Source: Savitreella phatthalungensis | Taxonomy: Eukaryota | Reading direction: 5' to 3' | NCBI GenBank assembly: GCA_051599415.1 | Contig: AP039692.1 | Location: 124,001-188,000, forward strand | DNA: 64,000 nt | Shown: piece by piece, positions 9,836-63,598 of the stretch | Position numbering within the stretch: the first letter of the stretch is position 1 | Layout: every line of letters begins with the position of its first letter | Position numbers and translations under genes: made by a program | Notes under the pieces: generated by a model | Told to the model about the DNA's origin: nothing | Database searches by the model: none | Seen by the model: only the letters and a program-made list of their open reading frames with translations

Positions 9836-10049
9836 ATAATTGTGTTATTGAACTACAGTATATACAATGAACGCGCTGCAGGTGAATTACACCGTGAATT
9901 GGTGCATGGATTTCTGAATGTGATTAATTCATCAGAGGAATACACAGAATTGATCCGTCATATCAATCAACTGAATTCTTTCAAAAGATATTCACCTGAA
10001 GATCGACGAGGGCGAGTGAATATATTTGACTGATGGATGGATGCATACA

Positions 10050-10160
10050 TGTAACGCAATCGGATAATCGCTACGTGTTCAGTCTGTGATATCTTATACG
10101 AGGGACGTGATCAGCACGTCACGTGACAACAAAGGCGATCAGTAAACCTAAGGTGTAACA
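10050..10160 (-). repeat. 3' LTR (111 bp)
   Basis: tgtaacgcaatcgg...aggtgtaaca is base-for-base identical to 15450-15560. On the minus strand it is preceded by a short purine-rich GGGGTGA (10161-10167), a weak PPT candidate. Confidence 0.97.
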
Positions 10161-10207
10161 TCACCCCGGCGGAAGGATCTGCCTTGTCCTCAAGGTTGGT
10201 TAGTATA

Positions 10208-10243
10208 TAGTTGTTGGTAGTCATATAGTCGTTGGTAGTCATA
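10208..10243. repeat. 18-bp tandem duplication in the retrotransposon 3' untranslated region
   Basis: TAGTTGTTGGTAGTCATA followed by TAGTCGTTGGTAGTCATA (1 mismatch). Confidence 0.8.
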
Positions 10244-11777
10244 GAGTCGTGAGAGTCGAGAAATAGTTGAAAAGAATTGGTCGCGGGTCTCCCGGATTAT
10301 CGGTAGGCGACGATTGTTGGTCTTGGTACCGTTGGTACTCGATTGGGTCCATGTGTCGGACAATATCAGCGTCTACCCACTGGTCGTCTGTAGCGTTGGT
10401 TCCGCGCCAATGAATTAGCAACTGGGTCTTGTTGCGGCGCGTCCTACTTCGGAGTATACTGTCGATTGTCGGTGTGTCGTTTGTTGGCGGCCTGTGATGT
10501 TGGCCCTCGGCCGCCGGCTCCAGCTTGGCGACGCTCACAACGTCGTGCTGCAAATATCCTTCCGGTAGAGCCAAACGATAGGCCAGAGGCCCAACCTTCT
10601 CGACAATGCGGAACGGTCCCACACGCTGAGGACCCAGCTTGTTGGTAACGAGGTTTGGGAAGTTGAAATCGCGTGCCCTGAGGAGGACGTGGTCCCCAAC
10701 TGCGAATTGGCGTTGCTCGTGGCGACGATCGTACCAGAAGGCAGACCGAGCGTCGGCTATAGCAAGCGAATCCTCAACCTCATGACGAACAAGTTCCCTT
10801 CGTTCGTGGAAGCCCAAGGAGTTAGGTCGGTCCGCCGAGTCGGCAATATCGCGGATAAAGTCTAGTCCAGTGCGTGGCTGCAGTCCAAATAAGGCTTCGT
10901 AAGGTGATTTCTGCGTTGACTCAGAGACTGACGTGTTGAGAAAGAATTCGACTGCGGGTAGGTGTTCCACCCAATCCTTTGTTGATGAGTCGACCAGGTG
11001 ACGCAGGATGATTTCCACTTGTTGATTTGTGCGTTCCGCCTGTCCGTCAGTCTGCGGATGGTAAGCGGTCGCCAGACGCTTCTTCACTCCCAATTGTCGA
11101 AGGAGGTCGGTCCAGAAGTCACTAATGAATCGAGTGTCACGATCGGAGATGATGGACTCTGGGATACCGTAGCGTCTGACGTAGTTAGCAAAGAATCTCT
11201 CTGCAGTCACTTCAGCAGTGTCTTTCTCCGAGCAAGGCCACAGTGTGACAACCTTGGTAAATCGATCGGTGACTGTCGTGAACGCATCGTAGCCTCCAGG
11301 GAGATGAGGCAGTTTCACGACAAAGTCCATTCCGACGGCCTGGAAGGGAGCAGTTGATGTGAGAGGTTGGAGTTGACCATACGGCCGGTGACGAGTAGGG
11401 TTGTTCTCGCGACAAGCTGCACATTTGCGGACGTAGTCGTCACACAGCGTCCTCAGTCGAGGATGGAAGAAGAGCGACCGAAGGCGCTTGTAGGTGCGTT
11501 CACCTCCAGAATGGCCATAGGTCTCGTGAGTGTGTTGGACTAACTCCCGGGCCTTCTCTGTCGGCAAGCACAGTCGTGAGTTGGTGCCGTTATTGAAGTA
11601 TAGTCGCTGTCGAACGAGGGAGAAACCATGATAGTCGTTGTCAGAACCAGGACCCGTTTCTCCTATTTCGAGTTGAGCAAATAGTCGGCGCCATAGCTTG
11701 TCAGCGCGATACAATGGTCCCCAGTCTTCCTCGTCATCGATTTCGACGGGAAAAAGGGCGACTGAGCGCGTCCACAT
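10239..11777 (-). CDS. Retrotransposon ORF3: integrase (HHCC, DDE, GPY/F) with C-terminal chromodomain
   Basis: HETYGH...CAAC zinc finger. GMDFV / ISDRD / AERTN catalytic motifs. KLGPQRVGPFRI GPY/F module. IDSILRSR...LLIHWRG...DDQWV chromodomain. It is in the +1 frame relative to the RT-RH ORF. Confidence 0.93.
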   Translation of the reverse strand: MWTRSVALFPVEIDDEEDWGPLYRADKLWRRLFAQLEIGETGPGSDNDYHGFSLVRQRLYFNNGTNSRLCLPTEKARELVQHTHETYGHSGGERTYKRLRSLFFHPRLRTLCDDYVRKCAACRENNPTRHRPYGQLQPLTSTAPFQAVGMDFVVKLPHLPGGYDAFTTVTDRFTKVVTLWPCSEKDTAEVTAERFFANYVRRYGIPESIISDRDTRFISDFWTDLLRQLGVKKRLATAYHPQTDGQAERTNQQVEIILRHLVDSSTKDWVEHLPAVEFFLNTSVSESTQKSPYEALFGLQPRTGLDFIRDIADSADRPNSLGFHERRELVRHEVEDSLAIADARSAFWYDRRHEQRQFAVGDHVLLRARDFNFPNLVTNKLGPQRVGPFRIVEKVGPLAYRLALPEGYLQHDVVSVAKLEPAAEGQHHRPPTNDTPTIDSILRSRTRRNKTQLLIHWRGTNATDDQWVDADIVRHMDPIEYQRYQDQQSSPTDNPGDPRPILFNYFSTLTTL

Positions 11778-13425
11778 TACGATGCTCTGTGCCTGGACGG
11801 TGGATTACGCGCATGCCGTCGAAGGTGGAGAGGAATAGGGCCCAGCGCAATAGGCGCCCATTGCCTTGCGTGGCCCCGCCGTTCTTGAGTATGTGAGCTA
11901 ACGCAGAATGGTCGGTAATCAATTCAAACGTTGACCCATCGAGAAAGTGCCGAAGCTTCTTGACCGCCCATACAACAGCTCCACATTCCAGCTCAGTGAT
12001 GGCGTAGTTATTCTCTGCTCCGTGCAGGAGGCGGGATAGGAACACTATCGGTCGTTCGTCCTTACGAGTTCCATTAGGGGGCCTTTGATGCAGTACGGCG
12101 CCATAGCCCGCCTTAGAGGCGTCCACGTACAGCACAAAGGTCCAGTCCCAGTCCACCGGCGCCAACGTTGTAGCGTTGGCCAGAGCCTCCTTTAACGAGT
12201 TGAATGCCGCTTCACATTCGGAGGTCCAACCGGTCAAAGGTCGCATGCGTAATTGTGAGTACTGAATGACAGGTTTAGCGGTGGACGGTATCGAAGAGTC
12301 ATTGTTGTAACGCACTGCGTATGGTCGTGTCATGTTGCTTTTGAGCGCAAATAAGGGTTGCGCGAGTATTGCGTAGCGCGGAACAAAATGGCGGTAGTAA
12401 CCAAAGAAGCCAAGAAGGCTTTCAAGGTCCTTCAGGGAACGAGGTGCGGGAAGGTTCAGCATGGCCTGAACCTTGTCCTGCGATGTTGAGAGTCCTAGAC
12501 GTCCAACCCTGTGGCCGAGAAGCTTCACCTCCTCATAGGCAAGGTGAGCTTTTTCGCGTGACAAAGTAAGTCCTTTACTTTCAAAGCGGCGTAGTACCTC
12601 TTCCACCAAGGTGAGGTGTTCTTCAAAGGTAGTGGAATAGACGACTAGATCGTCAACAAAGGCTGCGACTCCTTTGAACTTGAGGTCACCCAAGATCTCG
12701 TCCATTTTCCGTTGGAAAAACGCCGGACTATTGGTGTATCCCATTACGGCCACCGTCAACTGTTCCAAGCCTCGGTGGGGAGTAGAGAAAGCCGTGAGGT
12801 GGCGATCTGCCGGGTGAATAGGGATCTGATAAAAGCCTTTGGTAAGATCAAAGGTGGACACAAAGCGCGATCCAGCCACCTGCGAAAGGATGTCGTCTTG
12901 ACGAGGCAGAGGATAAACGTCTCTGGTCACCAGGGCATTGACAGGTCGGAAATCGATGACCACGCGATCCTTGTTCTCTTGTCGTACCACCATCACAGGG
13001 CAGCTCCAGGCGGAGGAGGATGGTTCAATGCGTCCGAGGGCTTTCATCTTGTCGAATACCTCATTGACCGCTTTAATCTCCCTTGGGGAGAGTCGATACG
13101 GCGGCCGAGAGACAGGCGTCACGTTGGGGTCTCGAAGCCGAATGCGCATGCTTGAACCATCGTTCAGAAGCCCCCAATCGTTCCGAAATACCTCTCGGCG
13201 CTCATTGACAATCCGCAGGAGCTGCGATCTTTCTTCTGGTGTGAGTGAAGGAGCAATATCCAGATCTTGCGCCAATGAAGAGTTGGGTCGATCGTCTTCA
13301 TCCTTGTAACTGAAGTCGTTGACTGTAAGTTCGACCTTAGCTGGACGAGCGGCGATCCCCAATCGTTCATTCGTGTGGGGGCAGTTGGCGTCTTCCTGCC
13401 CCCCTAGGGAAAAGCCCCTTCTGAT
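11734..13425 (-). CDS. Retrotransposon ORF2: reverse transcriptase + RNase H (probably entered by -1 frameshift)
   Basis: RPPYRLSP, SAWSCPV, IDFRPVN, DLTKGFYQI, MGYTNSPAFFQ, FVDD catalytic motif. RNase H LYVDAS...ELEC...TDH...DALSR. The frame is open from 13425, after a TGA at 13428-13426. Confidence 0.93.
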   Translation of the reverse strand: MRRGFSLGGQEDANCPHTNERLGIAARPAKVELTVNDFSYKDEDDRPNSSLAQDLDIAPSLTPEERSQLLRIVNERREVFRNDWGLLNDGSSMRIRLRDPNVTPVSRPPYRLSPREIKAVNEVFDKMKALGRIEPSSSAWSCPVMVVRQENKDRVVIDFRPVNALVTRDVYPLPRQDDILSQVAGSRFVSTFDLTKGFYQIPIHPADRHLTAFSTPHRGLEQLTVAVMGYTNSPAFFQRKMDEILGDLKFKGVAAFVDDLVVYSTTFEEHLTLVEEVLRRFESKGLTLSREKAHLAYEEVKLLGHRVGRLGLSTSQDKVQAMLNLPAPRSLKDLESLLGFFGYYRHFVPRYAILAQPLFALKSNMTRPYAVRYNNDSSIPSTAKPVIQYSQLRMRPLTGWTSECEAAFNSLKEALANATTLAPVDWDWTFVLYVDASKAGYGAVLHQRPPNGTRKDERPIVFLSRLLHGAENNYAITELECGAVVWAVKKLRHFLDGSTFELITDHSALAHILKNGGATQGNGRLLRWALFLSTFDGMRVIHRPGTEHRNVDALSRPFSRRNR

Positions 13426-15338
13426 TCAGCATAACCGAGAAGAGCTCCCTTGGAGTAAGCAAGCTTCTTAGTTGTCACGAGATAGAGTCTTCCCTGGTGG
13501 GTTCTTGCGGTTACTGAGTCGTGTGACGGGCGGAAGCGGCGTTTGCGGAGAGATACGTTGGTGAAAACCTCCACTTCCTGTCCTGGATTCAGCCGAATGG
13601 AACGTGGTGCGCTCACAGGCTCCCTGTCCAGTTTGTTTGAACCGTCTCGAGCAACCAAAAGGTCTCCCATCCAGTTGCGAGCTTCGGTAACAATGTAGCT
13701 GCCTTGGGCCAGGTCAAGTCGGATCCCATACGGCTCCAAAGTGTCTGTTCCGAGTATGAGACTGACTCCTAGGTTAGGCACCACATGCAAATAGGTGCTT
13801 AACCCCACGAGTCGTCCATTCCGCAGAGGCAGTAGGAGAGAGGCGATACAACCCTCGGAAGACTCGGTTGATGCGCCAGGCACCACTCCATGTAGGACAT
13901 GAGGAACGGACTTCTTGTTGGCGACACTGAACTTCTGAAGATAGCCGTAATAGTAATCGGCCGACACGAGCGACATGGCCGATCCAGTATCCATTACGGC
14001 CCAAACGATCGATCCTCCCCGTTCTAGCTGCACCTTAGCCCTGGCAGGGCTGAGACGACGAAAGGACTCCGCCGACGGCAAGGGACCTTTTGCCTTAGGC
14101 CAAACGACAGGACCAGGTGTGTCTGAGAGGAGGACAGCGAAAGCTTTCTCTCCAGGTTGGTCAATGTCGATGGGCGTAAGCGGAGAATCTCCGGAACTGG
14201 GTCGAACCAAATGAATGACTTCGCGGTCGTCCGAAATCTCTCCTTGCGAGGACTCCGTCTCCCCACTCGAGGCTTCGGTGGTGACGTATGTCTTTGCAGG
14301 CCGTGAATTGGTTCGCGGCTGCTTAGTCTCTTCTTTGACCTTGGCAGCGTGGCAAGGCGTAGCCTGCGGTCCCTTAAGCCAGTGAGATTGACCACAGTTT
14401 GGACACGGTGGGATCGGGCGAGGTCTCCCAGGATTGACGGAGGACTTCCGAGTCGTGTCTGGAGAAACGCTACGCGCGCGGTAGCGTGCCCTTTCTGGAT
14501 GCTGAGCCTCCTCGCGAGAAACTAGCTCCCTCTCGAGTTGCTCGACAGAGGTGAAACTGGTAAAAGAGAGGCCGTATCGATATTCGGCTGGAAGGCGCGC
14601 AACTATCTCGCCAATCTGTTGGTGCGGTTCGTAGTACTCGCACTCCAGACAGATCTCTTGAGTGCGCGACACGAACGTGCTAATGCTCTCCCGAGGCGAA
14701 TACTTGTGGCTATCGAGCAAGGAACGGATTTGGTAGAAATCCTTGCCAAACTTCTGACGAATCCTGTCGATCCACTCATCAGTAGACAGGATCTGGCTTG
14801 TAGAAAGTCCAGCTAAAGTAGCACGATACCAAACCCGGACAGCTTCGTCCTCGCTCTTAGAAAGGGTTTGCACAATAGCAGAACGCAGTTGACGCTCAGA
14901 GTATAAACCTTGCATTCCCCGTACCTCCGCCAGGAAGGCATTTGGGTGCTGAGACGAGAGATCTCCTAGTTTGAGTTTCTCTCGACCTTGGTTGTCATTA
15001 GATGGAGTGGGTCGGACGGTGTAACTTGACTCGTCAGGACTGGAGCTTAATTGACGAGCCGCTTGAGCAATCATTGCGGCCAAAGCGCTTGCGTCCACAA
15101 GCGAGACATTACGCGGTGTAGAGGCGGATGCTTGAACGTCCGGGAGATTGGTAGAGTCTCCCGCTGGATCTCTAGAAGGCGTATCTTCTTGAATCTCTTG
15201 ACGCGGTTGACCCTGAGCTCTGCGGCCAGAGCTGCTAGGTAAATGGAGAGTGGCAAGTTCATCGGCTGGAACAGCACTGGGAACTTGGACAGAAGGCGGC
15301 GCTGTAGGAGCGCGGACAGGCGGAGGTGTGCGACGCAT
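13404..15338 (-). CDS. Retrotransposon ORF1: Gag + aspartic protease, 644 aa
   Basis: Gag-like helical region, atypical knuckle CPNCGQSH...C, protease motifs AVMDTGSAMSLVS and LILGTDTL. The ATG lies about 100 nt after the PBS. Confidence 0.88.
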   Translation of the reverse strand: MRRTPPPVRAPTAPPSVQVPSAVPADELATLHLPSSSGRRAQGQPRQEIQEDTPSRDPAGDSTNLPDVQASASTPRNVSLVDASALAAMIAQAARQLSSSPDESSYTVRPTPSNDNQGREKLKLGDLSSQHPNAFLAEVRGMQGLYSERQLRSAIVQTLSKSEDEAVRVWYRATLAGLSTSQILSTDEWIDRIRQKFGKDFYQIRSLLDSHKYSPRESISTFVSRTQEICLECEYYEPHQQIGEIVARLPAEYRYGLSFTSFTSVEQLERELVSREEAQHPERARYRARSVSPDTTRKSSVNPGRPRPIPPCPNCGQSHWLKGPQATPCHAAKVKEETKQPRTNSRPAKTYVTTEASSGETESSQGEISDDREVIHLVRPSSGDSPLTPIDIDQPGEKAFAVLLSDTPGPVVWPKAKGPLPSAESFRRLSPARAKVQLERGGSIVWAVMDTGSAMSLVSADYYYGYLQKFSVANKKSVPHVLHGVVPGASTESSEGCIASLLLPLRNGRLVGLSTYLHVVPNLGVSLILGTDTLEPYGIRLDLAQGSYIVTEARNWMGDLLVARDGSNKLDREPVSAPRSIRLNPGQEVEVFTNVSLRKRRFRPSHDSVTARTHQGRLYLVTTKKLAYSKGALLGYAESEGAFP

Positions 15339-15438
15339 GGCACACAGTCAGAGACCCGATTGCAGCAAGTCTTGAAGGCACTAGCTGAGTCTTAGGTCAC
15401 GTCACAAAGGCTAGCAGTTCTTCAAGTCAGCCCTACTA

Positions 15439-15447
15439 GCGCTACCA
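15439..15447 (-). promoter_or_regulatory. Primer-binding site TGGTAGCGC (initiator tRNA-Met type)
   Basis: Starts 2 nt inside the 5' LTR boundary. Complementary to a tRNA 3' end ...GCGCUACCA, with the same TGGTAGCG core as the yeast Ty3 PBS. Confidence 0.8.
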
Positions 15448-15449
15448 AA

Positions 15450-15560
15450 TGTAACGCAATCGGATAATCGCTACGTGTTCAGTCTGTGATATCTTATACG
15501 AGGGACGTGATCAGCACGTCACGTGACAACAAAGGCGATCAGTAAACCTAAGGTGTAACA
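15450..15560 (-). repeat. 5' LTR (111 bp)
   Basis: Identical to 10050-10160. The minus strand carries TATAAGATA and a CACGTG/TGACGT cluster (gtcacgtgacgtgctgatcacgt). Confidence 0.97.
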
Positions 15561-15890
15561 ATACATGAATATGCAATTCGCTTCCCAAGTTTCTCGCTCG
15601 ATCGATCAGTCTCATAGACTCTCCTGCACGTGCATCACCCGCGCGCGCCCGCATCCAAACACACCATACCAACACTGCAACGGACCAACAAACTTACTTC
15701 CAAAGGCGACGTCAATTCCACCACATAACAAACTCGTATCTCATTTTGACTCGCATCTCCAGTCTTCTCACACATATTCTCGGTTTCGCCGACATTCGAT
15801 CCTCAACGGATTCTATAAAGAGTGGCCATCTCCTTTCCTATCTACTTGCATAAGCATTTCCTTACACCTTGGATCTACCTTTCGACAATC

Positions 15891-23410: not shown

Positions 23411-24574
23411 CTACATGGCAGGATCGCTTTGGACTTGCTTGAAGAAGAACATCTTTCGAAGTCTGCCGTCAGACGCAGTCTTCGTCTCGTCACTCGCTCC
23501 CGAGGCGCGCCGTTGAGAGACATTGCTCGGCCCGATAGGCGTCGCTGATGAAGCCGATGAGTTGGACGCTGCGGATGAAGTCGATCCTGGCCGGTAGTCA
23601 AATCGAGAGCCAGCAGGCAACACCGGGTATCTTAATGCCTTGAGTTTCTCGGCATCTGGAGTCTCGGAAGCGGGGTTCGGCGCGGCTACAGGCTTTGTCA
23701 TCGAAGTTGAACCAGCGGCAGCTGCACGAGCGGCTGAGAGGGAAAGCTCTCGCGCTGATGTGGCCTGGTGACCGGACATGCGCTCGCCTGAACGACTGCG
23801 ATGATGAGAAGCTCGCGAAGCTTCACTGTTCAGGTCAGGTACAGCGGAGCACGCCGGAGTGAGCGGTGTAAGTGATGATAGGGGCATGACGAGTTCGGTT
23901 GACTTGGGCAATGATCCCGAGAGTGAGGCGCGTTTCAGCGGTAACGGGCGGTGCTTGTCCATCGACCGGCGCGAGGAAGCCTGGATCGATGAGGTAGTCG
24001 ACGTCGGTTCAGCCTGTGCGAGCGCCAAAGCAGTCAGGCTTGCGGCAGAACCATGAGAGGGAAGGTGTACGCCAGGATAAGCTACTGGACCAGTGGATCG
24101 CCTTTCAGGTACGGGGAGTTTGCGATCACGTACTGGAGAGGTGCTGAGAAGCGTGGTAGCTGAGCCGCTGGCGTGGTTATCTGTGACGGTACCGACGCTG
24201 TAAGTATTCGAGCTGAATGATTCGACGAGCGCTGGCGATTTTTGTGCCGGAAAGTATCCCAGACTTGATGTTGAAGAGTTGTGGATCGACAAGCTCGAGA
24301 GACTAGCGACGGAACTGGTCGGCGTTGTGGCTTTTGGACGCGTTGATGACGCAGATGAGTTGGGTCCTGAAGTTGATCCAGTAGCAGGAGTGAGACCGGA
24401 TGCCTTGATGCGGGCAGCAATATCTGCAGCTGCTTTTGAGCTGCCTATCTCGACTTTCTGACACTTGCGAGAGCAGTAGAGGGAGTCACGATTATGGGCA
24501 GTATCGCAGACTGCGCAAAAGCTGTGAAAATATCCAGCGTCACTCGCCATGTCTGAAGATGGCGTGACAAGCAT
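23411..24574 (-). CDS. Ecl1-family zinc-binding protein (extender of chronological lifespan-like), 387 aa
   Basis: N-terminal FHSFCAVCD......LYCSRKC..E four-cysteine motif followed by a Ser-rich disordered region. The start may be the second Met. Confidence 0.75.
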   Translation of the reverse strand: MLVTPSSDMASDAGYFHSFCAVCDTAHNRDSLYCSRKCQKVEIGSSKAAADIAARIKASGLTPATGSTSGPNSSASSTRPKATTPTSSVASLSSLSIHNSSTSSLGYFPAQKSPALVESFSSNTYSVGTVTDNHASGSATTLLSTSPVRDRKLPVPERRSTGPVAYPGVHLPSHGSAASLTALALAQAEPTSTTSSIQASSRRSMDKHRPLPLKRASLSGSLPKSTELVMPLSSLTPLTPACSAVPDLNSEASRASHHRSRSGERMSGHQATSARELSLSAARAAAAGSTSMTKPVAAPNPASETPDAEKLKALRYPVLPAGSRFDYRPGSTSSAASNSSASSATPIGPSNVSQRRASGASDETKTASDGRLRKMFFFKQVQSDPAM

Positions 24575-26674
24575 ATGTGAGGTGTCCTTTTTGTTAGAAG
24601 GGACGATTAGGGACAGTGATAGGAAGCTGAAGCTAAGCGGCTGACAAAGCCGCCGAAGATTGATGCAGAGTTGACAAGAAAGATGTGTAGAAGAGCTGGA
24701 AAGATGGGGGCCCTTATATGAGGATGTTTAGCCCTGCTGATGAGCGAGTGCTCCGCGAAGTAACTTGTCTTTCGGCTGGACAGGTATGTGCTGATGTGAC
24801 GGTGTTAGCGAGAGATCTGCAGACCTCTCGAGTACTGTCGAACGCGTGGCTAGACTAGGCAGATGAGTTCAGTCAGACAAGTTTTCGTGTTTCTTGCCGC
24901 GTGAAAGTCTCGTGACGTGGAGCAACCTGTGGGGTTAAGGGATGAGGTACTGTAAGATCCGGGGAAACACGCTGCGGGATAGAGTTCAAGACCAATGTGT
25001 CCTTGCCCTGGATCACACGCCTATTGTGTGGAATGATCCTCTGCTGGATGCTGGTGGCGGTGCAGGTGACGGAAGACGCGGATCTGGGATTAGAGTACCA
25101 GTTCTGGTCAGTTGCAATCCCCTGGTCTGATGACTTGGTCAATCACAGTAAACTGTTTGTTGTTCTAGCAAGCGCGTGGATGTGTAAATAGTTGCACGGC
25201 GCTGCTTGCCTGGCTCAAACTCTTATAGCCACGAGGAACGGGCGCGTGGAACTGCGATGGAAGCTCGTTGATGACGCGCGTGGCAATGCGCGTGCTTATG
25301 AAAGCGCTTCGAGAGTACAGGCTGGAACGCGGATTGTCTCCTGCCTAGTGATTGCACGTTAGAGCGGGATTGCTTGATAGCAGAAGAGCGCGCGCGCGTG
25401 TCTTGACTGATGGCACTTGCAATCGATCGGACTCTTGGCTGAAACACGCGTTTGAAGACGCGAGGAATCTTTTAAGAAGCCCTGAAGTCCTGAAACGCTG
25501 CAACTACTCGTGCGCGATGCTTTCCAAGAAGTCAGACTCGAGTCAAGAGGGACTCGATTAGAAGCAAGAGTATTCCCAGGGGGAAGAAGGAAGTAGAGTC
25601 CTGTAGGTGGGAATGTTGTCAAGGGTTCAGTGTATGCTATTGCTACTAATAGTCTACAATTTCTGACTCTGAACAAGAGTGTTTCGTATAATGCACCCAG
25701 ACTCAAACCAAAATCCATTCGAATCAGACTGATCACATACTCGCTCGCCAATCGTCTTCCAAAACTCTTTCAGGTGATCTATCTAGACACGCTCAGCATG
25801 AGGTTATAGATTGGGATGTCCAAGCGATGTGGATATACAAATGATTGAGTGATTGACGCTGATGTGATCTGAAATGCTCCGTCACAATTTATCCCGTTCA
25901 TCCTTTATAAATCTGACTCCAATTAGATTGAGCACATGCTTATCGGACCGTAGACGTGATTGTGGCTCTAGATTCAATCCATCCAATCGATCTCTACCGT
26001 CCTCGCACATTCCCGCAAATCACCAAAAGATCCTCTTCATTGATCCTTCTTTCTTTTCTCAAATTGAAATCGATCGATCGATGGATCTACAAATCAAAAT
26101 CCTCTAATCAATCAGTCTTCCCTCGGATATTTACGCTCCAATTGACGTTCAAAGTTATCCCGTCCGTCAGCCTGACATTCATCTGAAGAACATCGCCCGC
26201 GGGCCACAGACTGTATTTGGACTGCCGGATGAATTACGCACCGTACAATCATGTCAACTTCACACACATTTTCACGTACTGTGCATGCACGACAATGCAG
26301 GCTTCGTTTTTGAATCTACGAGTACGTGTCGAATGGCTTTGACAAAGAAGTTTTTCGTCATATGCCGCTGATCAAGGCTTATATTGAGCACTAGTGTGAC
26401 TGCTGGGCTGGAAGAATAGTCGAGGAACGATGAATGATTACTGGAGGTGTAACAGTAGCAGCAGTATCTACAATGCGTTGCAAGCACCGGTATGCCTTAC
26501 TCGACCACATGATGGATGGCAAAGTGGAGAGGCGGCATGCGCGAGAGCAAGCGTCACCAAAGCTATCAGCGGTTGATCCCACCTTGGGAGACCCAATTCT
26601 CATATGATTATCCCGCGGGCAGTGCAATTCAGATACTCCTTGATTGTATTTGAATTCACGGTCGAAGTCCCTGA

Positions 26675-37761: not shown

Positions 37762-39258
37762 GGAAGCGCACCTGGCCTCTTATTACTCATTTCATTCAAT
37801 TTTCAGCTCAGCAACCCTCTTCTCATACACTTCCTATGGATCAGACCATGATAAATAGCTCAATGAATCAAAACCCCCCTTTGCCCAAATTCACATGTCT
37901 TTTTGACTCGAGCAACGATTGACGGATCTGTTACCTCGGACCACCCAGCTCTGCCGGATCAATGCTCTATGTCATGAGATTAATGTCTACAAGGATGAGT
38001 TTGATGCGTCACAAGGACACAAGACTTGACCGAAGGACATACTGATGGACCTCGGCAAAGTAGGCGGAGCTGGAGGATCGCCCATGCATGTTGTCCTACC
38101 CAGTGCTGTGCATTCTACGGCAGCTGTCATTACCTTATTGGTGATCCACGCGCACTGTAGAAAGACATAAATTATATCCGAAGCTAGCCGAGGGAAAATC
38201 ATTTTTAATCAAATTTGAATGAGTGTTGCACATGCATGTGGGACCCTTTTGACAGCTGATCAACCATTTCAACAGAGTTTTAATAAGATAATCAAATTCT
38301 ATTGCGGCAGAATCCAATCCTCACATCATCACCATCAACATCATCAATTAAATTAATTCTGTATAGCGTCACTCAATTGAAGCCAGTCAATTGAGCTAAG
38401 GAAAAACTTCCGATCTACTGTACACCCAATTAGTACGTACAGTAGACAGTACGTACAGTAGCTACGTTACGCCGCATGAGGTGTCATACCGCACACGCGC
38501 CCACCGATGCACACACATGCACGTCTATAGAACACCTACACCGTATCCTATATAGGACAATCTGGCACAGACGCACAGATTAGATAGTCTTGAGTCGCCG
38601 TTCTAATGTGCTAGTAGACTAGCTTGTCATCTACAACCACAACTGGCCTTCCGTCGATCTGAATCACAGCGCTTCCCGATCATCAACACGTATCCAGCGC
38701 ATCCATTCGGAATACTCATATCGCCTATATCACTACCAGCCGCTCAAGCTAGGCAGTCATCAACAGCATCGCTTACACTGCAGGAGATCTTGGAACCCCT
38801 TTTCAGAGCATTCCGCAAAGCAACCACGCTAGTTGTGACCCTCAATCCGAGACAACAGCTGAGCACATCATCTCCCACGCGCCCAGAAACACCACCTGGG
38901 TAGTATCTTAAGCGAAGGCAAGACGCGTGGAAAGTGACGCTTAAGGAGAACTGCTCGACAGGCGGATCATACCTCTTCCGATCGTCCAGCTCAACCGTGT
39001 TTCTGAACCTTCTCTGGCAGCGCATCAGTGGTTCCGCTGTTGATCCACACTTCTGCGTAACACTGCCTGCGATCTCTTCCAATTTTGCGACAAGATCACG
39101 CGATCAATCACTGGTGGCCTGAGCAAGCACTAGCAGTCCCTTTCGCCGCCTCACTCCCCTGCCGTTGCCTTGAAAAAAGCGCCTCAGTCTCCCGGCTTCA
39201 GTTTGCTGTACATTGATTGACACACTCATCATATCATACTCACAGTCTTCTGTCAGAG

Positions 39259-42183
39259 ATGAACAACGACGATGAAGACATGTCTTCAGAGACCTCAAGT
39301 CAGGACGAAAACTCCAACGACAACCCCGCATCGGCTGTGGAAGGCGGTAACAAGCAGAACCCTGCACAATCAAGCTTCCGTGCGTGTGAATCATGTCGCT
39401 CACGCAAAGTACGCTGTGTCATGAACGTGCCTGGTGGACCCTGCGAATATTGCGCAAAGCATCGCGCTCAGTGTATTCAGCTCGAGCCACAGCCAAAACG
39501 GAAGCGGAAATCCACAGCCAACGAACTCAAGAGTCGTGTAGACGTCCTCGAACGACAGCAGCTACAGGATGCTCTGAAACCAAAATAAGCGCATGCGGAC
39601 GGCTGACACCGTTCAACCACCCGCTGGATATCCACCACCACCATCGCAGCAGTCGCAATCACAACCATTGGCTCCGCAGCCGGGCTTCGCATCACCCGTA
39701 CATGGCTACGACGCTGCATGCAGCCGCTGCCGCTGCAGCCGCAAACAGCCATGGGTAAAGCCCATGTGTACGAACTCCCAAGACCACAATATCCTGGATC
39801 TCGACCGGGAAGCACGATGCCAGCGCCATCACATCCTTCAGGACCAACAATGCTCATGCCACAACCAGGTGATCCGCGGATACAGCCGCCTAGCCAGCTA
39901 TCTCAGCACAGCTACCCCGGTCAGAGCACTGGCTACTCTCCAGCAGCTCGATACGATCGTATTCTTCCTCAGATTCAGTACGGTCGAGCTGGTAATGTCG
40001 GTCCGCAGCCACCACCTTTCAATATGGATCTTTCAGGCGACAACGGTATTTCCTCTCCGAGCAACTTCCAAGCCCTTTCGTCATCGGACGGCTCTCGTCC
40101 CAGTCCTGTGGCAGCAAGTCCTCATACCGGATTTCAATCGTCCCTCGTAGCTGGCGGCGGAGGCAGCGGCAGTTCTCCGCATAGCTCGTCTGATACCTTG
40201 ACTACGACGGTTGGTGAAAAGCTGCTTGGTCCAGTGGCTGGCATGGATGCAGACTTCTTCGCCTCGTTCATCAAGCGCGGTCTAGCTACACAGGAAGATT
40301 CGAAGCTCGACCCAGCAAAGTCACAACTCTACGAGCGCCTTTTCCGCGTCTCGAACGATCCAGCCCTACCAATTTACAAAATCGCCTTCGTCGACCAAGA
40401 CGCCATGTTTGAGTACGAGCACAGGATTGCACAGCTCGATCCCAAACTCGTCAACGATCTCCAGCGTAGCTACGACGCTTATGGTACGGAGATCGTCGAG
40501 ACTTTTGCTCGCAAATTCGCCACTCACTATCGCGTCGATCCTGCAATGCTGAAAACGTCGGTAGCCGAGGCAGCGGCGCATCGTCGGCTCTCCTTCCTGT
40601 GCGCCGCCTGCGCTCTCGGTGCTATGGCCGTTGACTCATGGCCGCTCCGCAAACGCATCGCCATTGCCCAGTCCTGGCACCAGTACAACATGACCTGTAT
40701 CGGATATGAGCTACGGCAGTCGACGCCAGAATTCATCAAGGCAATCGTCATGACAGCTGACTTTCCCTTGCAGGAAATCACGTCGACAGGTCTCATGGCA
40801 GCAGTCGACAAGGCGCTCGAGATGAAACTTCACATCGATCCGCGCCATTGGCGCATTTCAGAAAGCGAGAAATCCGAACGTCGGCGCCTGTGGTCAATGC
40901 TTCTAACAAAAGAACGACTATGTACACTATTCTACTCACGGCCGACCATCTCCTCGGACGCCTACGACACCGCTTTGCCAACGGCCACCACTCGCAGCGA
41001 TGAAGCAGCTTTGATCATGCACGAGGCCGCGCGGATCATCAGCGATATCATGACGGCGCTCTACTCGATCAAGGGAGCGCGACTGCTCCATGACAATCAG
41101 TTTGTCGCGCGACTCCTATCGAAACAATTCTGTGAGCAGGCGGTAGTCCTAAGAGTGAAGTTCCTCAAGATGTTCCCAGCATTCGAGCATATGCCCGATG
41201 CAGCGCTCAGTCTCGAAGCTGCATTCTGTCTCCTCCACATCGAGTTCTGCATTGTGCTGGCGACCCGAGCACTTGCGCACGCACCAAAGCTACCAGAAGT
41301 CGACAAGCTGGAAAACACCCATCAGCTTGTACTCGGCTGTGTGAGCATCTGCGAGCTGATCTTCCGCATGCCCGATAGCTTCTTCTCGGAAGTATGGATG
41401 CCAAGCTGCTGCTATATCCTCATGCAAGTCACCTTCGAGCTCCTTCGCGCCCTTACGGGACAACTCGATGATCAAACCCGAGAGCTCGCTCACGATGCGC
41501 TCGATCGCCTGATCAAGCTTGGCGTGCGCATGGGCGACAAGTGGCATTCAGCCAAACATCTGATCCCTCTCATGCGACTCCGCCCTGTCCTCCTCGATAG
41601 ACCTGACCTACAGATGTTGCAGGAAACAGCTGAAATTTTGAAGCATCACTACAACTACGACACAAGGCGTTCAGCACGATCAGTGACGTCTGCACCGAGA
41701 GCAAAGCATCCAAAACAGTCGCATTCTTCTTCTGGTCCGCTCAAGGCTGATGACCTCGATAGTGGCCACGGCTCCAATCTCGGATCGCGCGGCAACACAA
41801 CGCCGCGCATGTCTGTCTTGCAGCAGCAGGCCATCAACAACGGTGGCGATCACGGACCAGGTAGTACTGGCTCAGGATCTCACAGCGCGTCCAACAGCAT
41901 CAGCGGTGGCTGTGGCGCTTTCCCGTGTCCCGACAGCAACGAACTTTCGCCATGGCAGATGAACGACATATGGCCCCTGCCTCCTGCCGGCGCAACCTTT
42001 GCCCCCGGTCCAGGCGCAGAGTGGGACGATTTCAGCCAACTCCTAGGCCTCGCAACACCCGGAGCTATGTTCCCCGCAGCAGACTACCTAGGCGCATGGT
42101 CCATGCCAATGGCAATGCCAATCACTGCACCGCAGCCTCAACCTCAGCAACCGCAGCAACAGCAGCCCCCACCACGTCACTGA
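39259..42183 (+). CDS. Zn(II)2Cys6 transcription factor with fungal TF middle-homology region; reading frame interrupted at 39583-39758
   Basis: ACESCRSRKVRC......PCEYC......C plus coiled coil in 39259-39588. LEMKLHIDP......SEKSERRRLWSML..ER in 39718-42183. The two parts join into a coherent 973-aa protein by three +1 steps. Confidence 0.8.
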
Positions 42184-53345: not shown

Positions 53346-53797
53346 TTCGCCATACATACGCGCAAAAGCTTTGGATCTTCAACGTTTGAGACATCGTCCC
53401 GCTGCACCCACCTTTCGCTTGTGACCGAGCTATCACCCACACTGTCTCATACCCTCTCGCGCGACTGCGACTCCCTCATCGCTTGCGCTAGGCGACGTCA
53501 ACATCCTCTTCTGACGTCCTCCATAGCAATCCTCACTGCGATATAATCCCCTTTCCATCACCCGAACACCCCCCATTTCTACGTGCGACAGTCGACCGCT
53601 TGTCAGCAACGCCGTCTAACGCAAACGCGCACGTTCTTCAACTCTAATTTCCAGGGATTGTACCATCCTGATAGAAGCTCTCTGCCGCGCAAGAGCGTTA
53701 TTTGCGCACCTCAACCATCCTTCTCAGATCTTTCGCCTTCGCAATCTAGAAGAAAGGCGAAAACAACGGCTGACATCCATCCTCTCTCGTGATCAAG

Positions 53798-56700
53798 ATG
53801 GACGCAGACGCCGCTTTCATATCGCTGAGTGCGGCCACATACATCGCATCCACAAACACTTCAGCATCAGATCCAGGACCATCTCGCGCGACACTCTCTC
53901 CTGATGAAGTCTGTCTCCGCAGTCTAAATGCCTTTCTCGATTACTTCCTTGCCATGATCCTGCAAGATGCAAAGTCAGTCGACCTCAAAGATCTTCAGGC
54001 TACACTCACACAGCTCCTGAACTCCCCGCTCGGTCACGTCGCCCTGCAGGAGGCTTCGGCAGAACTCGAGACATACAAATCACAAGCGGCGGGCCAAGGT
54101 CGCATTCTTGACGACGAGCTCAATGGCAAGCGCAGACCTTCCAATCAGCCTTTCAACGTCGAGGCCGTCTGGGCTCAGGCCAGAGTCAGATGCATGGTCT
54201 ACTCGACGATTGGTGAGAAGGAGGAGAATGACTTCCCGCCCCTCCCAGAAGACGAGAACAGCGTGACCCCACCAGTCGCCATTTTCCTCACAGCCATTCT
54301 CGAATTCCTTGGAGAGCACATTCTCTTCACCACTGCACGATTTGCACGCTCGCGCCTCGGCGAAGACACACGAGGTACCATGACCCATGTCGATCTTGAC
54401 CAAGGCATTCGCACAGATACCGTCCTCGCGGCTCTCTGGTCGGATTACTGGGAGATCATGCCTGCTTCCATGCAGCAACAGGCAGCGGCAGCAGCATCGA
54501 CGACCGCAGCTTCTTCCGCTCCTTCTGAGCTGCAAGGACAGAAGGCGCTGTCGGGCATGCAGAATCATCAGACGATCGGAACACTGCCCTTCACACCAGG
54601 CTCAGCCGATGCGTCCCCCGGAAGTGTTCCTTACAACCCATCTGCACAGCCTGCTCCGACAGAAGCAGTCTCGGCTCTCGCGGCTGGAACTCGTCAGCAA
54701 GATCTTGCCTCTACACCGGTCGTCATGCGGAAGCAGAGTCCAGCACTACACGATCCACGAAACCAGCCGCAAGCACAGTCGCAGACAGCCAAGCCAGCTC
54801 AACCAAGACCTATCAACACCTCAACCCTCACATCCGATAATGTCAACGTTGCAACCTCGCCCACAGCCACCATGGCAAATGGCTCCACCTTTGCCACGCG
54901 CAAGGGTGTCCAGACAGGTCTTACACAGGCCAGGCACCTCGCTTCGACAGACGATGCCGTTAGTAATGTCAGTGCTCCGATTGCAGAGCCTGGCTCCGAC
55001 TTTGACGCCTTCTTGCGTTACGAGCGACTACGGGAGGAAGAGGCACAGAGGCAATCGCGCATTCTTTCAGACCGCGACCGCGAGGCAGCTGAGGAGAAGC
55101 GCGCTCGAATCGTTGCGCAGCGCGAAGCCGCGTTGGCATCACAGCGCCAATCGATCACGCCACCAAACGATGCACAGACCCCTGCTCCCAAGTCATCACC
55201 AACCAAGCCTCAGCAGCAGACGCAGCCGACCACACCCGGGCGTGCTGGTCCAGGCTACATCGAACTACCAGCATATCGCGCGCCTCCCACAGGTGCCTCA
55301 CCAATGGCATCACCATCAGGCGCTCGTACCCCTTCGAATCTCCAGCCACGCGATGCAACGGGCTCTCCTGTCGGCGAACAGACCCTCAGACTTGCAGCTT
55401 TCCTGCGTAACACTGCACCGCCTGGCAGCGCACCGGCATCCCCTCTGCGAGAAACGCCCGTCGCAGGAGCTCCTGCCAAGAAGTCCATCCCGATCATCTC
55501 GTCGCCGTCATCATCCAAAGTCCCGCAGTCGCCGTCTCGGGGCACGACTTCCGGCACGGCGATCACGGCGCCAGAGAGTCTCGCGCCGGCGTCTCCCGCG
55601 CCAGTCCCGCGCTCCGCCGGCAACGCAAATGTCGCATCTCCACAGGCTGTAGCTGCCGCTGTGGCCGCGACGAAGAAGCTCGAAGCCCCTGCAGACATCA
55701 CACATGCTCCTACCACGGCGCAGCGCGTCAAGGCTCGCCCGGCGGAAAAGCGGCAGCCGATCGAATCGAGTGCAGGCACCTCTGTCAGCGAGGGATTCCA
55801 CGTGCCAACCACAGAGTCCGCCGCCGAGGTCTTTGTACCGGACAATGCAAGAGCAGAGTCACTCGCAGACTTCCTCTTCGGTACACCGGCCCCGCCCGCA
55901 GCAGTTGCCCATCCCAGCGCCAGAGGTGCAGAGATCATTGGTTCTCCCACACGTCAGTCATCAGCATATTCAGTCATTCCACCGCCACAGAAGCAGCAGC
56001 AGTCGCAACCCTCGGCACCTGTCTCGAAGATTAACACCGAATCTCGTCAGGAGCTTCTGCGTCAGACGACGCCGTCGCGACTGACGACGATCCCCGGATA
56101 CGATCGTCCTGTCGGACTGCCCTTGGGATCTCCATTAGCAGCCACAGCAGGCGCAAAGCAGGCCTCGACTGGCAATGCATCTGCTCCAGCGCCCGCGGCT
56201 GCCGAAATGCACCGCGATAACTCGATCGCCCGGATTGCTCACGAGGGCAAGCGTTCTCGCTTCAGGATGACGGCGTTATCGGACCAGCGAGCAGTCTCGC
56301 GCTCACAGCGTGAAGAAGAGGACGCCCTCCTGGCAGAGGACTCTGACGACGAATTGCTCGACTACAATGAGCTCCTCACCGGTCGATCTGCAGGCGGTGG
56401 TCGCAGAGGTGTCGAGTCCCTGGCAGAATTCCTCCGGTCGACCGCACCACCCGGCACGGACAATGCAGCCGTCGGTAAGCGGATGCCGCCGACAGTCATG
56501 TCGGTTGGTGGGAACGCGCAAAAGGACTCTGTCGGCGACTCCCTGCCATCATCGGCAGCGAACGGTCCCAAGGGATCACGACTCTCCTCGCTCGGACGCA
56601 GGATCTCCAGTCTCAGTTTCCAGAAACGGACGACATCGACATCGAGCGTGCCGACGGCGAGCGACAAGGAGTACGTCCACGACACCGCGTCAACAGCAGC

Positions 56701-56812
56701 AGCGTCTGAGTCAACCATCAACGACAAACTTGCACAGCCACAGAACCCGCCATCCCGACCTACGCATCGGCCGCTCATCCCGTCCACCTCCGACGGTCCC
56801 CCACGGCTTTAG
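53798..56812 (+). CDS. Uncharacterised protein with N-terminal H2B/H2A-like histone fold and long Pro/Ser/Ala-rich tail
   Basis: About 1004-aa ORF from ATG 53798. Two segments resemble H2B and H2A helices. Three LAxFL..T..PP repeats in the tail. Confidence 0.75.
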   Translation: MDADAAFISLSAATYIASTNTSASDPGPSRATLSPDEVCLRSLNAFLDYFLAMILQDAKSVDLKDLQATLTQLLNSPLGHVALQEASAELETYKSQAAGQGRILDDELNGKRRPSNQPFNVEAVWAQARVRCMVYSTIGEKEENDFPPLPEDENSVTPPVAIFLTAILEFLGEHILFTTARFARSRLGEDTRGTMTHVDLDQGIRTDTVLAALWSDYWEIMPASMQQQAAAAASTTAASSAPSELQGQKALSGMQNHQTIGTLPFTPGSADASPGSVPYNPSAQPAPTEAVSALAAGTRQQDLASTPVVMRKQSPALHDPRNQPQAQSQTAKPAQPRPINTSTLTSDNVNVATSPTATMANGSTFATRKGVQTGLTQARHLASTDDAVSNVSAPIAEPGSDFDAFLRYERLREEEAQRQSRILSDRDREAAEEKRARIVAQREAALASQRQSITPPNDAQTPAPKSSPTKPQQQTQPTTPGRAGPGYIELPAYRAPPTGASPMASPSGARTPSNLQPRDATGSPVGEQTLRLAAFLRNTAPPGSAPASPLRETPVAGAPAKKSIPIISSPSSSKVPQSPSRGTTSGTAITAPESLAPASPAPVPRSAGNANVASPQAVAAAVAATKKLEAPADITHAPTTAQRVKARPAEKRQPIESSAGTSVSEGFHVPTTESAAEVFVPDNARAESLADFLFGTPAPPAAVAHPSARGAEIIGSPTRQSSAYSVIPPPQKQQQSQPSAPVSKINTESRQELLRQTTPSRLTTIPGYDRPVGLPLGSPLAATAGAKQASTGNASAPAPAAAEMHRDNSIARIAHEGKRSRFRMTALSDQRAVSRSQREEEDALLAEDSDDELLDYNELLTGRSAGGGRRGVESLAEFLRSTAPPGTDNAAVGKRMPPTVMSVGGNAQKDSVGDSLPSSAANGPKGSRLSSLGRRISSLSFQKRTTSTSSVPTASDKEYVHDTASTAAASESTINDKLAQPQNPPSRPTHRPLIPSTSDGPPRL

Positions 56813-62000: not shown

Positions 62001-62401
62001 GCTACATACGAACTGTCCAATAATGCACATACAGAGCTTCAGCTAGGGCGTATCGCACTAGACCCGTGCACGATGGTTCACAGACCACTGGAATCACAAA
62101 GACTGAGCCTGAATCATTGCCAGAATTCGCCGCTCCGACGACATCATCAGTCGATACGAGGACAAATCTCATCCGCTGCTTCTGAGCCAGGCTCCAGAGC
62201 AGACCAGTGAAGTGCCACTTTTGTAAACGCCTCAGCTGCTCCAATCTAATAGCGACCTGTATCTCTGGTCGTGCCTTACGAGCATCAACGATCAAGTGCA
62301 AGTAATAATCATCGTCTCAAGACGTCGATCTCCATCACAGCTCACTCCACAGTCAAGTTAGCTACCTACCTTGCAACTCGTCGCAGCGTTGCTGAAGAAT
62401 C

Positions 62402-63598
62402 ATGGGCTTGATTGACAAGCTGAAGGGCCACAAGAAGGAGGAGAGCTTTGACGATGTGGCAGCGAGACAGCAGCAGCAGAGCACCGGAAAGAGCAGCAAG
62501 CGAAGGTCTTTGAGCCTCGGGCGCAAGTCTAGCAAGAAGCTCGGTGCAAAGGACGTCGACGCTGTCCCGCCTGTGCCAACTGAAGGTACGACTGCAACGT
62601 ATCCTGTTGATGGTACGCACGGAGTTGAGTCTGCTCGGGAGAACGCTGCCGCGAACTCCGTAGCTCACAGCAACGGAAACACGAATCCGTCTGAGATTCC
62701 GGCGGCTTCTTCATCTGCCACGCCGGGCGCGGGTATCACGAATGCTGCATCCGCGGCAAAGGCGCAGGGTTCGGCAAACGAGAAGTCTGTCGACGGCATC
62801 ACGTCTGGAGTGCACTCACTCCATATCCCTGCCAGCGACCCACGCTTCGACCGATCCAAGCTGAGCGATACGCCTTTCGATGAGGCAGCATTCTTTGGCG
62901 ACTCACAGACCACGACAGACTTCCAGCAATCGCAGCTTAAGGCTGTGATTCAGCAACGTATCCAGCCGACCGTGCACGAGATTGTACATCCAATCTTCCA
63001 CCACGAGCACCACGTCACACACCACCAAACACGCATTCAGCCGGTGCTTGAGCAGGTGATCTTGCCCGCAAAGCACTTTGTCATCATCGAAGGCAAAAAG
63101 TATGAAATCCTTCCGGAAGCTGTCGTCAACCACGTTGTTGTGCAGCGTGAGTACATTCCGATGAACGTCAAACCGCAAGTCATTGTACACAATTACGTGA
63201 ACGGGGAACCGCATGTGGGACCGATCACCGGCGTTGGCGCTAGTCCACTCAACCAAGACGTTGCAACTGAGCACCAGCGCTTCATCAACGCTTCGTACGA
63301 GCCTAATGCGGCAGCCAAGCACCAGAAAGATGTGCCCGCAGCTGTACTGGACTCTCGGCCTGCTGGACAAATCGTTGACACGGGCTTTGACGCGAGCAAG
63401 ATTGATCGTGCTGCTGCGAACCTGTTCAACAACCCGATCTACAAGGGTCCGATTGAGAATCTCAGCAACCACGCCAATATGACGACCACAGGTTCAGCAT
63501 ACAGTGCTGCCGGTATTCACCAGGTGCCAAACACGTCGAAACCTCTGCCAGGCGTCAATCTCCCAGGCGGCAACTCTGCAGCGGTCACATCTAAGTAA
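62402..63598 (+). CDS. Hypothetical protein with one His-rich 'allergen'-like module, 398 aa
   Basis: Long ORF. AVIQQRIQPTVHEIVHPIFHHEHHVTHHQTRIQPV aligns with the module in 58211-58912. Confidence 0.75.
   Translation: MGLIDKLKGHKKEESFDDVAARQQQQSTGKSSKRRSLSLGRKSSKKLGAKDVDAVPPVPTEGTTATYPVDGTHGVESARENAAANSVAHSNGNTNPSEIPAASSSATPGAGITNAASAAKAQGSANEKSVDGITSGVHSLHIPASDPRFDRSKLSDTPFDEAAFFGDSQTTTDFQQSQLKAVIQQRIQPTVHEIVHPIFHHEHHVTHHQTRIQPVLEQVILPAKHFVIIEGKKYEILPEAVVNHVVVQREYIPMNVKPQVIVHNYVNGEPHVGPITGVGASPLNQDVATEHQRFINASYEPNAAAKHQKDVPAAVLDSRPAGQIVDTGFDASKIDRAAANLFNNPIYKGPIENLSNHANMTTTGSAYSAAGIHQVPNTSKPLPGVNLPGGNSAAVTSK

What the first reader, a model, noticed from the sequence alone, without database searches (positions are those of the whole stretch)
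39575..39760. Zn2Cys6 transcription factor needs three consecutive +1 frame steps to join its DNA-binding domain to its body
Seen: the Zn cluster/coiled-coil ORF (ATG 39259) stops at CCA-AAA-TAA (39580-39588). The +1 frame opens only three codons earlier (after TGA 39575-77) and continues NKRMRTADTVQPPAGYPPPPSQQSQSQPLAPQPGFAS. At TCA-CCC-GTA (39692-39700) a second +1 step gives PYMATTLHAAAAAAAANSH. That frame stops at GGG-TAA (39753-39758), and a third +1 step gives GKAHVYELPRP... into the long regulatory-domain ORF. The stitched product is a natural-looking 973-aa TF with an NLS-like KRMR and poly-Pro/Gln/Ala linker. Each step sits on an in-frame homo-triplet codon (AAA, CCC, GGG) that could re-pair at +1, and two are followed directly by TAA. 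I found no consensus intron that repairs the frame, and no other cellular CDS in the window is broken. Established: +1 shifting at 'shifty stops' occurs in antizyme and at AAA-TAR in Euplotes. Inference: this is (a) three clustered single-base insertion errors in the assembly, which is the mundane and quite likely explanation, (b) a recent pseudogenisation, or (c) a multi-step recoding switch whose default product is a 109-aa DNA-binding-only repressor. The position of the middle step is inferred from protein composition only.
Basis: partly seen in the sequence, partly recalled or inferred. Interest (0 to 1): 0.85.

Follow-up and report, generated by a model that had tools for sequence, protein, structure and literature searches.

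The report
Transcription factor gene split by extra letters
An ordinary fungal zinc-cluster transcription factor gene looks broken only because this assembly carries four small insertions, probably sequence errors, that reads of the same organism lack, so no unusual decoding is needed.

Summary
The ORF layout is as described. A 109-aa Zn2Cys6/coiled-coil ORF (ATG 39259, TAA 39586-88) is followed by pieces in the two other frames and then a long regulatory-domain ORF ending at 42183. Three +1 displacements do join them.

Read-derived contigs of the same organism (X1 and X2, one sample, depths 43 and 536, 0 substitutions over 39200-40400) lack one letter at each of 39577, 39720 and 39743, and lack a CAG at 39556. 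With those six letters left out, ATG 39259 to the stop at 42181-83 is one uninterrupted 972-codon ORF. A contig set from another study (X3, about 2% divergent) has the shorter state at 39556, 39720 and 39743. At 39577 its contig ends.

All four relatives that have an N-terminus read straight through the junction in one chain.

The breaks are therefore peculiar to this record. Consensus error is the most likely cause (about 0.7). A real strain-specific lesion is less likely (about 0.25). Recoding is essentially excluded. Interest is low.

The parts
39259..42183 (+). Whole gene: a single-exon Zn2Cys6 transcription factor. It is 972 codons plus stop once the six extra letters are left out.
   Evidence: It is colinear with P0002 and P0003.
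39259..39588 (+). The 109-aa ORF as it stands in the window: Zn2Cys6 cluster (C-x2-C-x6-C-x8-C-x2-C-x6-C), a basic K-R-K-R-K stretch and the start of a coiled coil. It ends at TAA 39586-88. The protein collection holds it as a separate protein, P0007.
   Evidence: It is 68% identical to P0002 over 94 aa, and that alignment ends at D-A-L.
39556..39558 (+). Extra CAG (in frame). It adds one Gln inside the coiled coil.
   Evidence: Left out in X1, X2 and X3. It forms a one-residue gap column against all 4 relatives.
39577..39577 (+). Extra A in the AAA run 39577-79. This is the first frame break (frame 1 to frame 2).
   Evidence: Left out in X1 and X2. The X3 contig ends at this position, so it is uninformative. 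P0002 continues with N-N-K-R-A-R where the window's frame 2 reads N-Q-N-K-R-M-R.
39578..39719 (+). Linker segment that the window holds in frame 2. It is rich in Pro, Gln and Ser.
39720..39720 (+). Extra G, not in a homopolymer. This is the second frame break. The same G completes the ATG 39718-20 with which the 821-aa gene model P0001 starts.
   Evidence: Left out in X1, X2 and X3. Context. P0001 sequence.
39721..39742 (+). Short Ala-rich segment that the window holds in frame 3.
39743..39743 (+). Extra A in the AAA run 39743-45. This is the third frame break and returns the reading to frame 1.
   Evidence: Left out in X1, X2 and X3.
39744..42183 (+). Body of the factor in frame 1: a low-complexity linker, the Fungal_trans middle domain and a conserved C-terminal hydrophobic/acidic motif. 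Stop at 42181-83.
   Evidence: It is 35-36% identical to P0002.

Best explanation
The locus is one ordinary, intron-less gene for a Gal4-type Zn2Cys6 transcription factor of about 972 aa. The order is Zn cluster, basic stretch, coiled coil, low-complexity linker, fungal-specific middle domain and a C-terminal activation-like motif. In this assembly record the gene carries four small insertions within 188 bases: +CAG at 39556, +A at 39577, +G at 39720 and +A at 39743. The three single-base ones push the reading through all three frames and back. Gene callers therefore split the gene into a 109-aa protein and an 821-aa protein. The start codon of the 821-aa model is itself created by the extra G. 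The insertions are most likely local consensus errors of the assembly, not a property of the organism. No frameshifting, splicing or other recoding is involved. Shown: the extra letters are absent from read-derived contigs of the same organism and of a close relative, and the shorter form is one open frame. Inferred: the cause is assembly error rather than a real allele of the assembled strain.
For: -: X1 and X2 each span 39200-40400 in a single contig (18,534 and 6,274 letters, depths 43 and 536). They show 0 substitutions and exactly six gap letters: 3 at 39556 and 1 each at 39577, 39720 and 39743. Neither run yielded a contig with the longer form (one record laid per run).
- these two runs hold 0.91 of the sampled 31-letter words. 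By my own arithmetic, the words overlapping the four sites make up about 9% of the stretch, which accounts for the shortfall.
- X3 comes from a different organism label and study (12 substitutions in 645 laid letters). It has the shorter state at 39556, 39720 and 39743.
- leaving the six letters out gives 972 codons with no stop before 42181-83.
- the alignment with P0002 runs at 68% identity up to D-A-L, with a gap exactly at the extra Gln. The frame-2 piece then picks up two residues further along P0002, at N-K-R. All 4 relatives with an N-terminus (P0002, P0003, P0005, P0006) continue past the coiled coil in one chain.
- Four insertions against no substitutions in 1,201 bases is the pattern of consensus error rather than natural divergence. 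This rests on general knowledge that substitutions outnumber indels in natural variation.
- The contig is long (714,618 bases) and the window has no N. This is compatible with a long-read assembly, whose residual errors are mostly indels (inference).
Against: - The errors are not assembly-wide. Fifteen other large cellular ORFs (33,975 nt) are unbroken. If three frame-breaking indels were scattered evenly, the chance of all falling in one 167-nt span is about 6e-5. A local cause must be assumed, such as a low-coverage or patched stretch, and I could not show one.
- One of the three single-base insertions (39720) is not in a homopolymer.
- I do not know whether X1/X2 come from the strain that was assembled. 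If they come from another strain, the longer form could be a real allele.
- X1 and X2 are one sample, so they are not independent of each other. They may also be the source of the assembly.
- Contigs show presence, not absence, of variants.
Confidence: 0.7

Rival explanations
1. Real strain-specific lesion. The assembled strain truly carries the four insertions, so the gene is a recent pseudogene. At most it is a split locus giving a 109-aa DNA-binding-only fragment.
For: The public record and its gene calls (P0007, 109 aa; P0001, 821 aa) carry the longer form. The rest of the window shows no sign of a noisy consensus. The strain identity of X1/X2 relative to the assembly is unknown.
Against: Four independent insertions within 188 bases, with 0 substitutions over 1,201 bases against X1/X2, is very unlikely for natural mutation. 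All four changes are insertions. No contig with the longer form was laid from X1, X2 or X3.
Confidence: 0.25
2. Programmed recoding. Three successive +1 ribosomal frameshifts join the DNA-binding domain to the body, with the 109-aa protein as the default product.
For: Step 1 is confined to a three-codon overlap that ends in AAA-TAA. The stitched product looks natural.
Against: - The extra letters are absent from DNA contigs of the same organism, where a plain ORF encodes the protein.
- They are not conserved. X3 lacks them at the 2 single-base sites it covers, and all 4 relatives with an N-terminus are single chains.
- The true positions of breaks 2 and 3 (39720, 39743) are not on the proposed homo-triplets, and 39720 is not in a run at all.
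- No Rfam family matched 39200-40000 at E up to 1.
- Three efficient shifts in series would give a negligible yield (general knowledge).
Confidence: 0.02
3. An intron removes the stops. Because the two big ORFs share a frame, an in-frame GT-AG intron spanning 39586-39606 could join them.
For: The Zn-cluster ORF and the body ORF are both in frame 1. A CTGAC branch-like motif (39602-06) and CAG acceptors at 39647-49 and 39650-52 exist.
Against: - The only GT dinucleotides between 39530 and the TAA are at 39533, 39536, 39538 and 39544. All are poor donors, and all lie inside the coiled-coil codons that are conserved in 4 of 4 relatives.
- The homology continues in frame 2 right after the break.
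- Genomic contigs restore the frame by single-letter differences, which is not splicing.
- The neighbouring genes are single long ORFs.
Confidence: 0.01

Closest known systems
Gal4-type fungal Zn2Cys6 binuclear-cluster transcription factors (Pfam PF00172 plus PF04082)
   Same: It has an N-terminal six-cysteine cluster, a basic stretch, a coiled coil, a low-complexity linker and a fungal-specific middle domain, all in one chain once the extra letters are left out.
   Different: It belongs to a small, unnamed subfamily. Only 5 proteins reached E <= 1e-30 with P0002 as query among 1.84 billion representatives, one of them the window's own. Its regulon is unknown.
Residual insertion/deletion errors in genome assemblies that split gene models
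   Same: The indels come without substitutions relative to reads of the same organism. Two of the three single-base ones lie in AAA runs. One gene is split into two models.
   Different: The four differences are tightly clustered within 188 bases, while 33,975 nt of other ORFs in the window are clean. One is outside any homopolymer.
Programmed +1 frameshifting (antizyme, bacterial prfB, Ty1/Ty3, Euplotes AAA-TAR sites; recalled, not from a call)
   Same: The first break lies next to an AAA-TAA in the zero frame.
   Different: The break is absent from the organism's reads and from relatives. Three shifts in series would be needed. No conserved shift site or stimulator was found.

Membership tests
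Programmed +1 ribosomal frameshift site | The frame break is present in the organism's genomic DNA | tested here: not met
   X1 and X2 contigs (one sample, 0 substitutions) lack the extra letter at all 3 sites.
Programmed +1 ribosomal frameshift site | The frame break is conserved in orthologues | tested here: not met
   X3 lacks the extra letter at the 2 single-base sites it covers. All 4 protein relatives with an N-terminus are single chains.
Programmed +1 ribosomal frameshift site | A shift-prone codon followed by a slow or stop codon at the true break, with or without a stimulatory RNA element | tested here: inconclusive
   AAA-TAA exists near break 1. Breaks 2 and 3 lie at 39720 and 39743, not on the proposed codons. 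Rfam gave no match.
Programmed +1 ribosomal frameshift site | A full-length trans-frame protein is made from the broken template | not testable with these tools
   No RNA run was listed, and there are no proteomic data.
Gal4-type Zn2Cys6 transcription factor | Six-cysteine binuclear cluster motif | tested here: met
   PF00172 scored 29.9 bits against a cut-off of 21. The spacing C-x2-C-x6-C-x8-C-x2-C-x6-C was read.
Gal4-type Zn2Cys6 transcription factor | Fungal-specific middle homology domain in the same chain | tested here: met
   PF04082 scored 23.7 bits against a cut-off of 23, which is marginal. It is in the same chain only in the read-supported shorter form.
Gal4-type Zn2Cys6 transcription factor | Dimerising coiled coil after the cluster; DNA binding to CGG-type repeats | not tested
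   A heptad-like stretch conserved in 4 relatives is visible. No coiled-coil prediction or binding test was run.
Spliceosomal intron | A GT donor, branch site and AG acceptor whose removal restores the frame without deleting conserved codons | tested here: not met
   The only GTs upstream of the stop (39533-39544) lie inside conserved coiled-coil codons.
Assembly consensus indel error | Independent reads of the same organism disagree with the record by indels only | tested here: met
   6 gap letters and 0 substitutions over 1,201 bases, in each of 2 runs of one sample.
Assembly consensus indel error | The assembly's own reads disagree with its consensus at these sites | not testable with these tools
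   It is not known whether X1/X2 are the source reads.

The most novel reading that the evidence does not exclude
The assembled strain really carries the four insertions, and the locus works as a natural split. The 109-aa Zn-cluster and coiled-coil fragment would be made alone and would compete for the factor's DNA sites as a small repressor. The 821-aa body would be silent or expressed from the ATG that the extra G creates. Three-step recoding on this template remains formally possible only in that case.
Probability: 0.04. Interest if true: 0.35.

Novelty: not a real feature. Interest (0 to 1): 0.06.

Why it matters
The main value is as a correction and a caution. The public record splits one transcription factor gene into a 109-aa and an 821-aa gene model, and the 821-aa model starts at an ATG created by one of the extra letters. 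A tempting multi-site recoding story disappears once reads of the same organism are consulted. If the lesions proved real in the assembled strain, this would be a strain-specific loss of one Zn2Cys6 regulator, which is of local interest only.

Tried and rejected
- Whole genome: none is held for this window.
- RNA evidence: no RNA holder was listed, so nothing can be said about expression or splicing from reads.
- Runs: 8 were listed and 4 were laid (X1-X4). X4 covers only 40048-40285, so it reaches none of the four sites. X3's contig ends at 39577, so it says nothing about that site.
- Earlier notes of this scan: none for this genome.
- Rfam on 39200-40000 at E up to 1: 0 matches.
- Papers: one search for 'ribosomal frameshifting' plus 'Zn2Cys6' found 1 paper (PMC12855567). 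I saw only its listing and the start of its abstract. It concerns uORFs of cellulase genes and is unrelated.
- Intact copy elsewhere: a search for longer proteins sharing the 109-aa N-terminus found only P0002 and P0003 (66-68% identical). No intact near-identical copy appeared.
- Frame-2 piece against P0002: the colinear match starting at N-K-R is not significant alone (E = 2). It counts only because it follows directly on the significant N-terminal alignment.
- P0004: this 557-aa relative of the body has no Zn cluster in its predicted chain. I take it as a partial model, but it does not show a fused form.
- In-frame intron: considered because the two large ORFs share a frame, then rejected (see the rival explanations).
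- Uniformly noisy assembly: considered and rejected, because 15 other ORFs (33,975 nt) are intact.

Full report
**What is in the window**

- An ORF with its first ATG at 39259 encodes 109 residues and stops at TAA 39586-88.
- The next frame is open from 39578, just after TGA 39575-77, and starts N-Q-N-K-R-M-R.
- The third frame is open until TAA 39756-58.
- A long ORF (39607..42183) carries the rest.

Pfam finds Zn_clus in the 109-aa ORF (29.9 bits, cut-off 21) and Fungal_trans in the long ORF (23.7 bits, cut-off 23). Three +1 steps add up to a whole codon.

**Is the break real relative to homologues?**

The protein collection holds the window's own two gene calls: P0001 (821 aa, body only) and P0007 (the 109-aa ORF). 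The nearest other proteins are P0002 (1024 aa) and P0003 (1015 aa).

P0002 aligns to the 109-aa ORF at 68% identity over 94 residues. That alignment ends at D-A-L, three codons before the stop, and has a one-residue gap exactly at the second Gln of the window's R-Q-Q-L. P0002 then continues N-N-K-R-A-R, and the window's frame 2 reads N-Q-N-K-R-M-R. The colinear match of the frame-2 piece starts at P0002 residue 93, but alone it is not significant (E = 2).

So the first frame change is a genuine displacement relative to a homologue. An in-frame intron does not explain it.

**Reads**

Eight runs were listed for 39200-40400, none on record as RNA. I laid four of them.

X1 and X2 come from one sample and carry the same organism label. 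Each spans the whole stretch in a single contig (18,534 and 6,274 letters, depths 43 and 536). They show 0 substitutions and six gap letters: three left out at 39556 and one each at 39577, 39720 and 39743. Each run laid only that one record, so no contig with the longer form was seen.

Their 0.91 share of sampled words is what these four sites alone would cost. By my own arithmetic, about 106 of 1,171 possible 31-letter words overlap the sites.

X3 has a different organism label and comes from a different study. It differs by 12 substitutions in 645 laid letters. It has the shorter state at 39556, 39720 and 39743, and its contig ends at 39577, so it is silent there. X4 covers only 40048-40285 and is uninformative.

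**What the shorter form encodes**

Leaving out those six letters in a script gives 972 codons from ATG 39259 with no stop before 42181-83.
- The reading leaves frame 1 after D-A-L and passes through the window's frame 2 from 39578 to 39719.
- It forms one Ser codon across 39720.
- It runs through seven mostly Ala codons held in frame 3 (39721-39742).
- It re-enters frame 1 at 39744, shortly before G-K-A-H-V-Y-E-L.

The second and third (39695-97 and 39753-55) are misplaced by 25 and 10 bases, and the proposed P-Y-M-A-T-T segment is not part of the protein. The ATG 39718-20 that starts the 821-aa gene model is completed by the extra G at 39720.

**Family context**

With P0002 as query against 1.84 billion representatives, 118 proteins had E <= 0.001, 13 had E <= 1e-10 and 5 had E <= 1e-30. 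I fetched five of them, P0003-P0007.

Four relatives have an N-terminus: P0002, P0003, P0005 and P0006. All four carry the cluster, the basic stretch, the coiled coil and the body in one chain. In their alignment the window's extra Gln is a lone insertion.

P0004 (557 aa) has the body only and does not bear on fusion. P0007 is the window's own ORF. A search for longer proteins sharing the 109-aa N-terminus found only P0002 and P0003, so no intact near-identical copy is in that collection.

**Is the assembly noisy in general?**

It is not. Fifteen other large non-retroelement ORFs (33,975 nt) are unbroken. Eleven of them (25,575 nt) have Pfam matches, mostly with near-complete profile coverage: PP4R3, ArfGap, YL1, thiamine-phosphate synthase/hydroxyethylthiazole kinase, eIF5, NicO, a pseudouridine synthase, an SNF2/Mit1-like remodeller, ETF and others.

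If three frame-breaking indels were scattered evenly, the chance of all falling in one 167-nt span is about 6e-5. The four differences are therefore a local cluster. This argues against a uniformly noisy consensus. It argues equally against independent natural mutations.

**Weighing the explanations**

Recoding is contradicted. The template that would require it is not found in the organism's reads. The breaks are not conserved. Two of the three true break positions do not sit on the proposed shifty codons. No RNA family matched.

An intron is contradicted. The only GTs upstream of the stop (39533-39544) lie within coiled-coil codons conserved in 4 of 4 relatives. The frame is also restored in genomic contigs by single-letter differences.

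That leaves an assembly or consensus error against a real allele of the assembled strain. Several points favour error:
- There are four insertions, no deletions and no substitutions over 1,201 bases.
- Two of the three single-base insertions lie in AAA runs.
- The contig is long and free of N.

I could not show that X1/X2 come from the assembled strain, and I could not find a local cause for the cluster. I put error at about 0.7, a real lesion at about 0.25 and everything else at a few per cent.

**Comparison with what is known**

The gene is a regular member of the Gal4-type Zn2Cys6 family, in a small unnamed subfamily, and its regulon is unknown. The apparent triple frameshift resembles known +1 frameshift sites only in having an AAA-TAA near the first break. 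It fails the tests of presence in genomic reads and of conservation. One literature search for frameshifting together with Zn2Cys6 gave a single unrelated paper, of which I saw only the listing.

**Verdict**

This is not a real biological feature, or at most a strain-specific broken gene. Interest is low. The useful outcome is that the two gene models should be merged, pending confirmation from the assembly's own reads.

Noticed in passing
window 10045-15565, minus strand: A young Ty3/gypsy-type (chromodomain) LTR retroelement. It has identical 112-nt direct repeats at 10049-10160 and 15449-15560, TG..CA ends and a 5-bp flanking duplicate, ATACA. It holds three abutting ORFs in different frames. 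13404-15347 has no Pfam match and sits in the gag position. 11734-13425 carries RVT_1 and RT_RNaseH. 10239-11804 carries Integrase_H2C2, rve, SH3_Tf2-1 and Chromo. A frame change between RNase H and integrase is unusual for this kind of element. It could be real, programmed, or another local consensus error.
   Followed up: partly
window 39718-39720: The start codon of the collection's 821-aa gene model (P0001) is completed by the extra G at 39720. In the read-supported shorter form this ATG does not exist.
   Followed up: yes
window about 42090-42180, and the C-termini of P0002-P0005: A C-terminal motif is conserved from the window's protein to relatives of 28-36% identity. It runs from an acidic/aromatic stretch through Q-L-L-G-L to a final G-x-W. 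It looks like an activation or partner-binding motif, but this was not tested.
   Followed up: no
window 2558-5410 (+), 23411-24727 (-), 53774-56812 (+), 62396-63598 (+): Four long ORFs (951, 439, 1013 and 401 codons) have no Pfam match at E <= 0.001.
   Followed up: no
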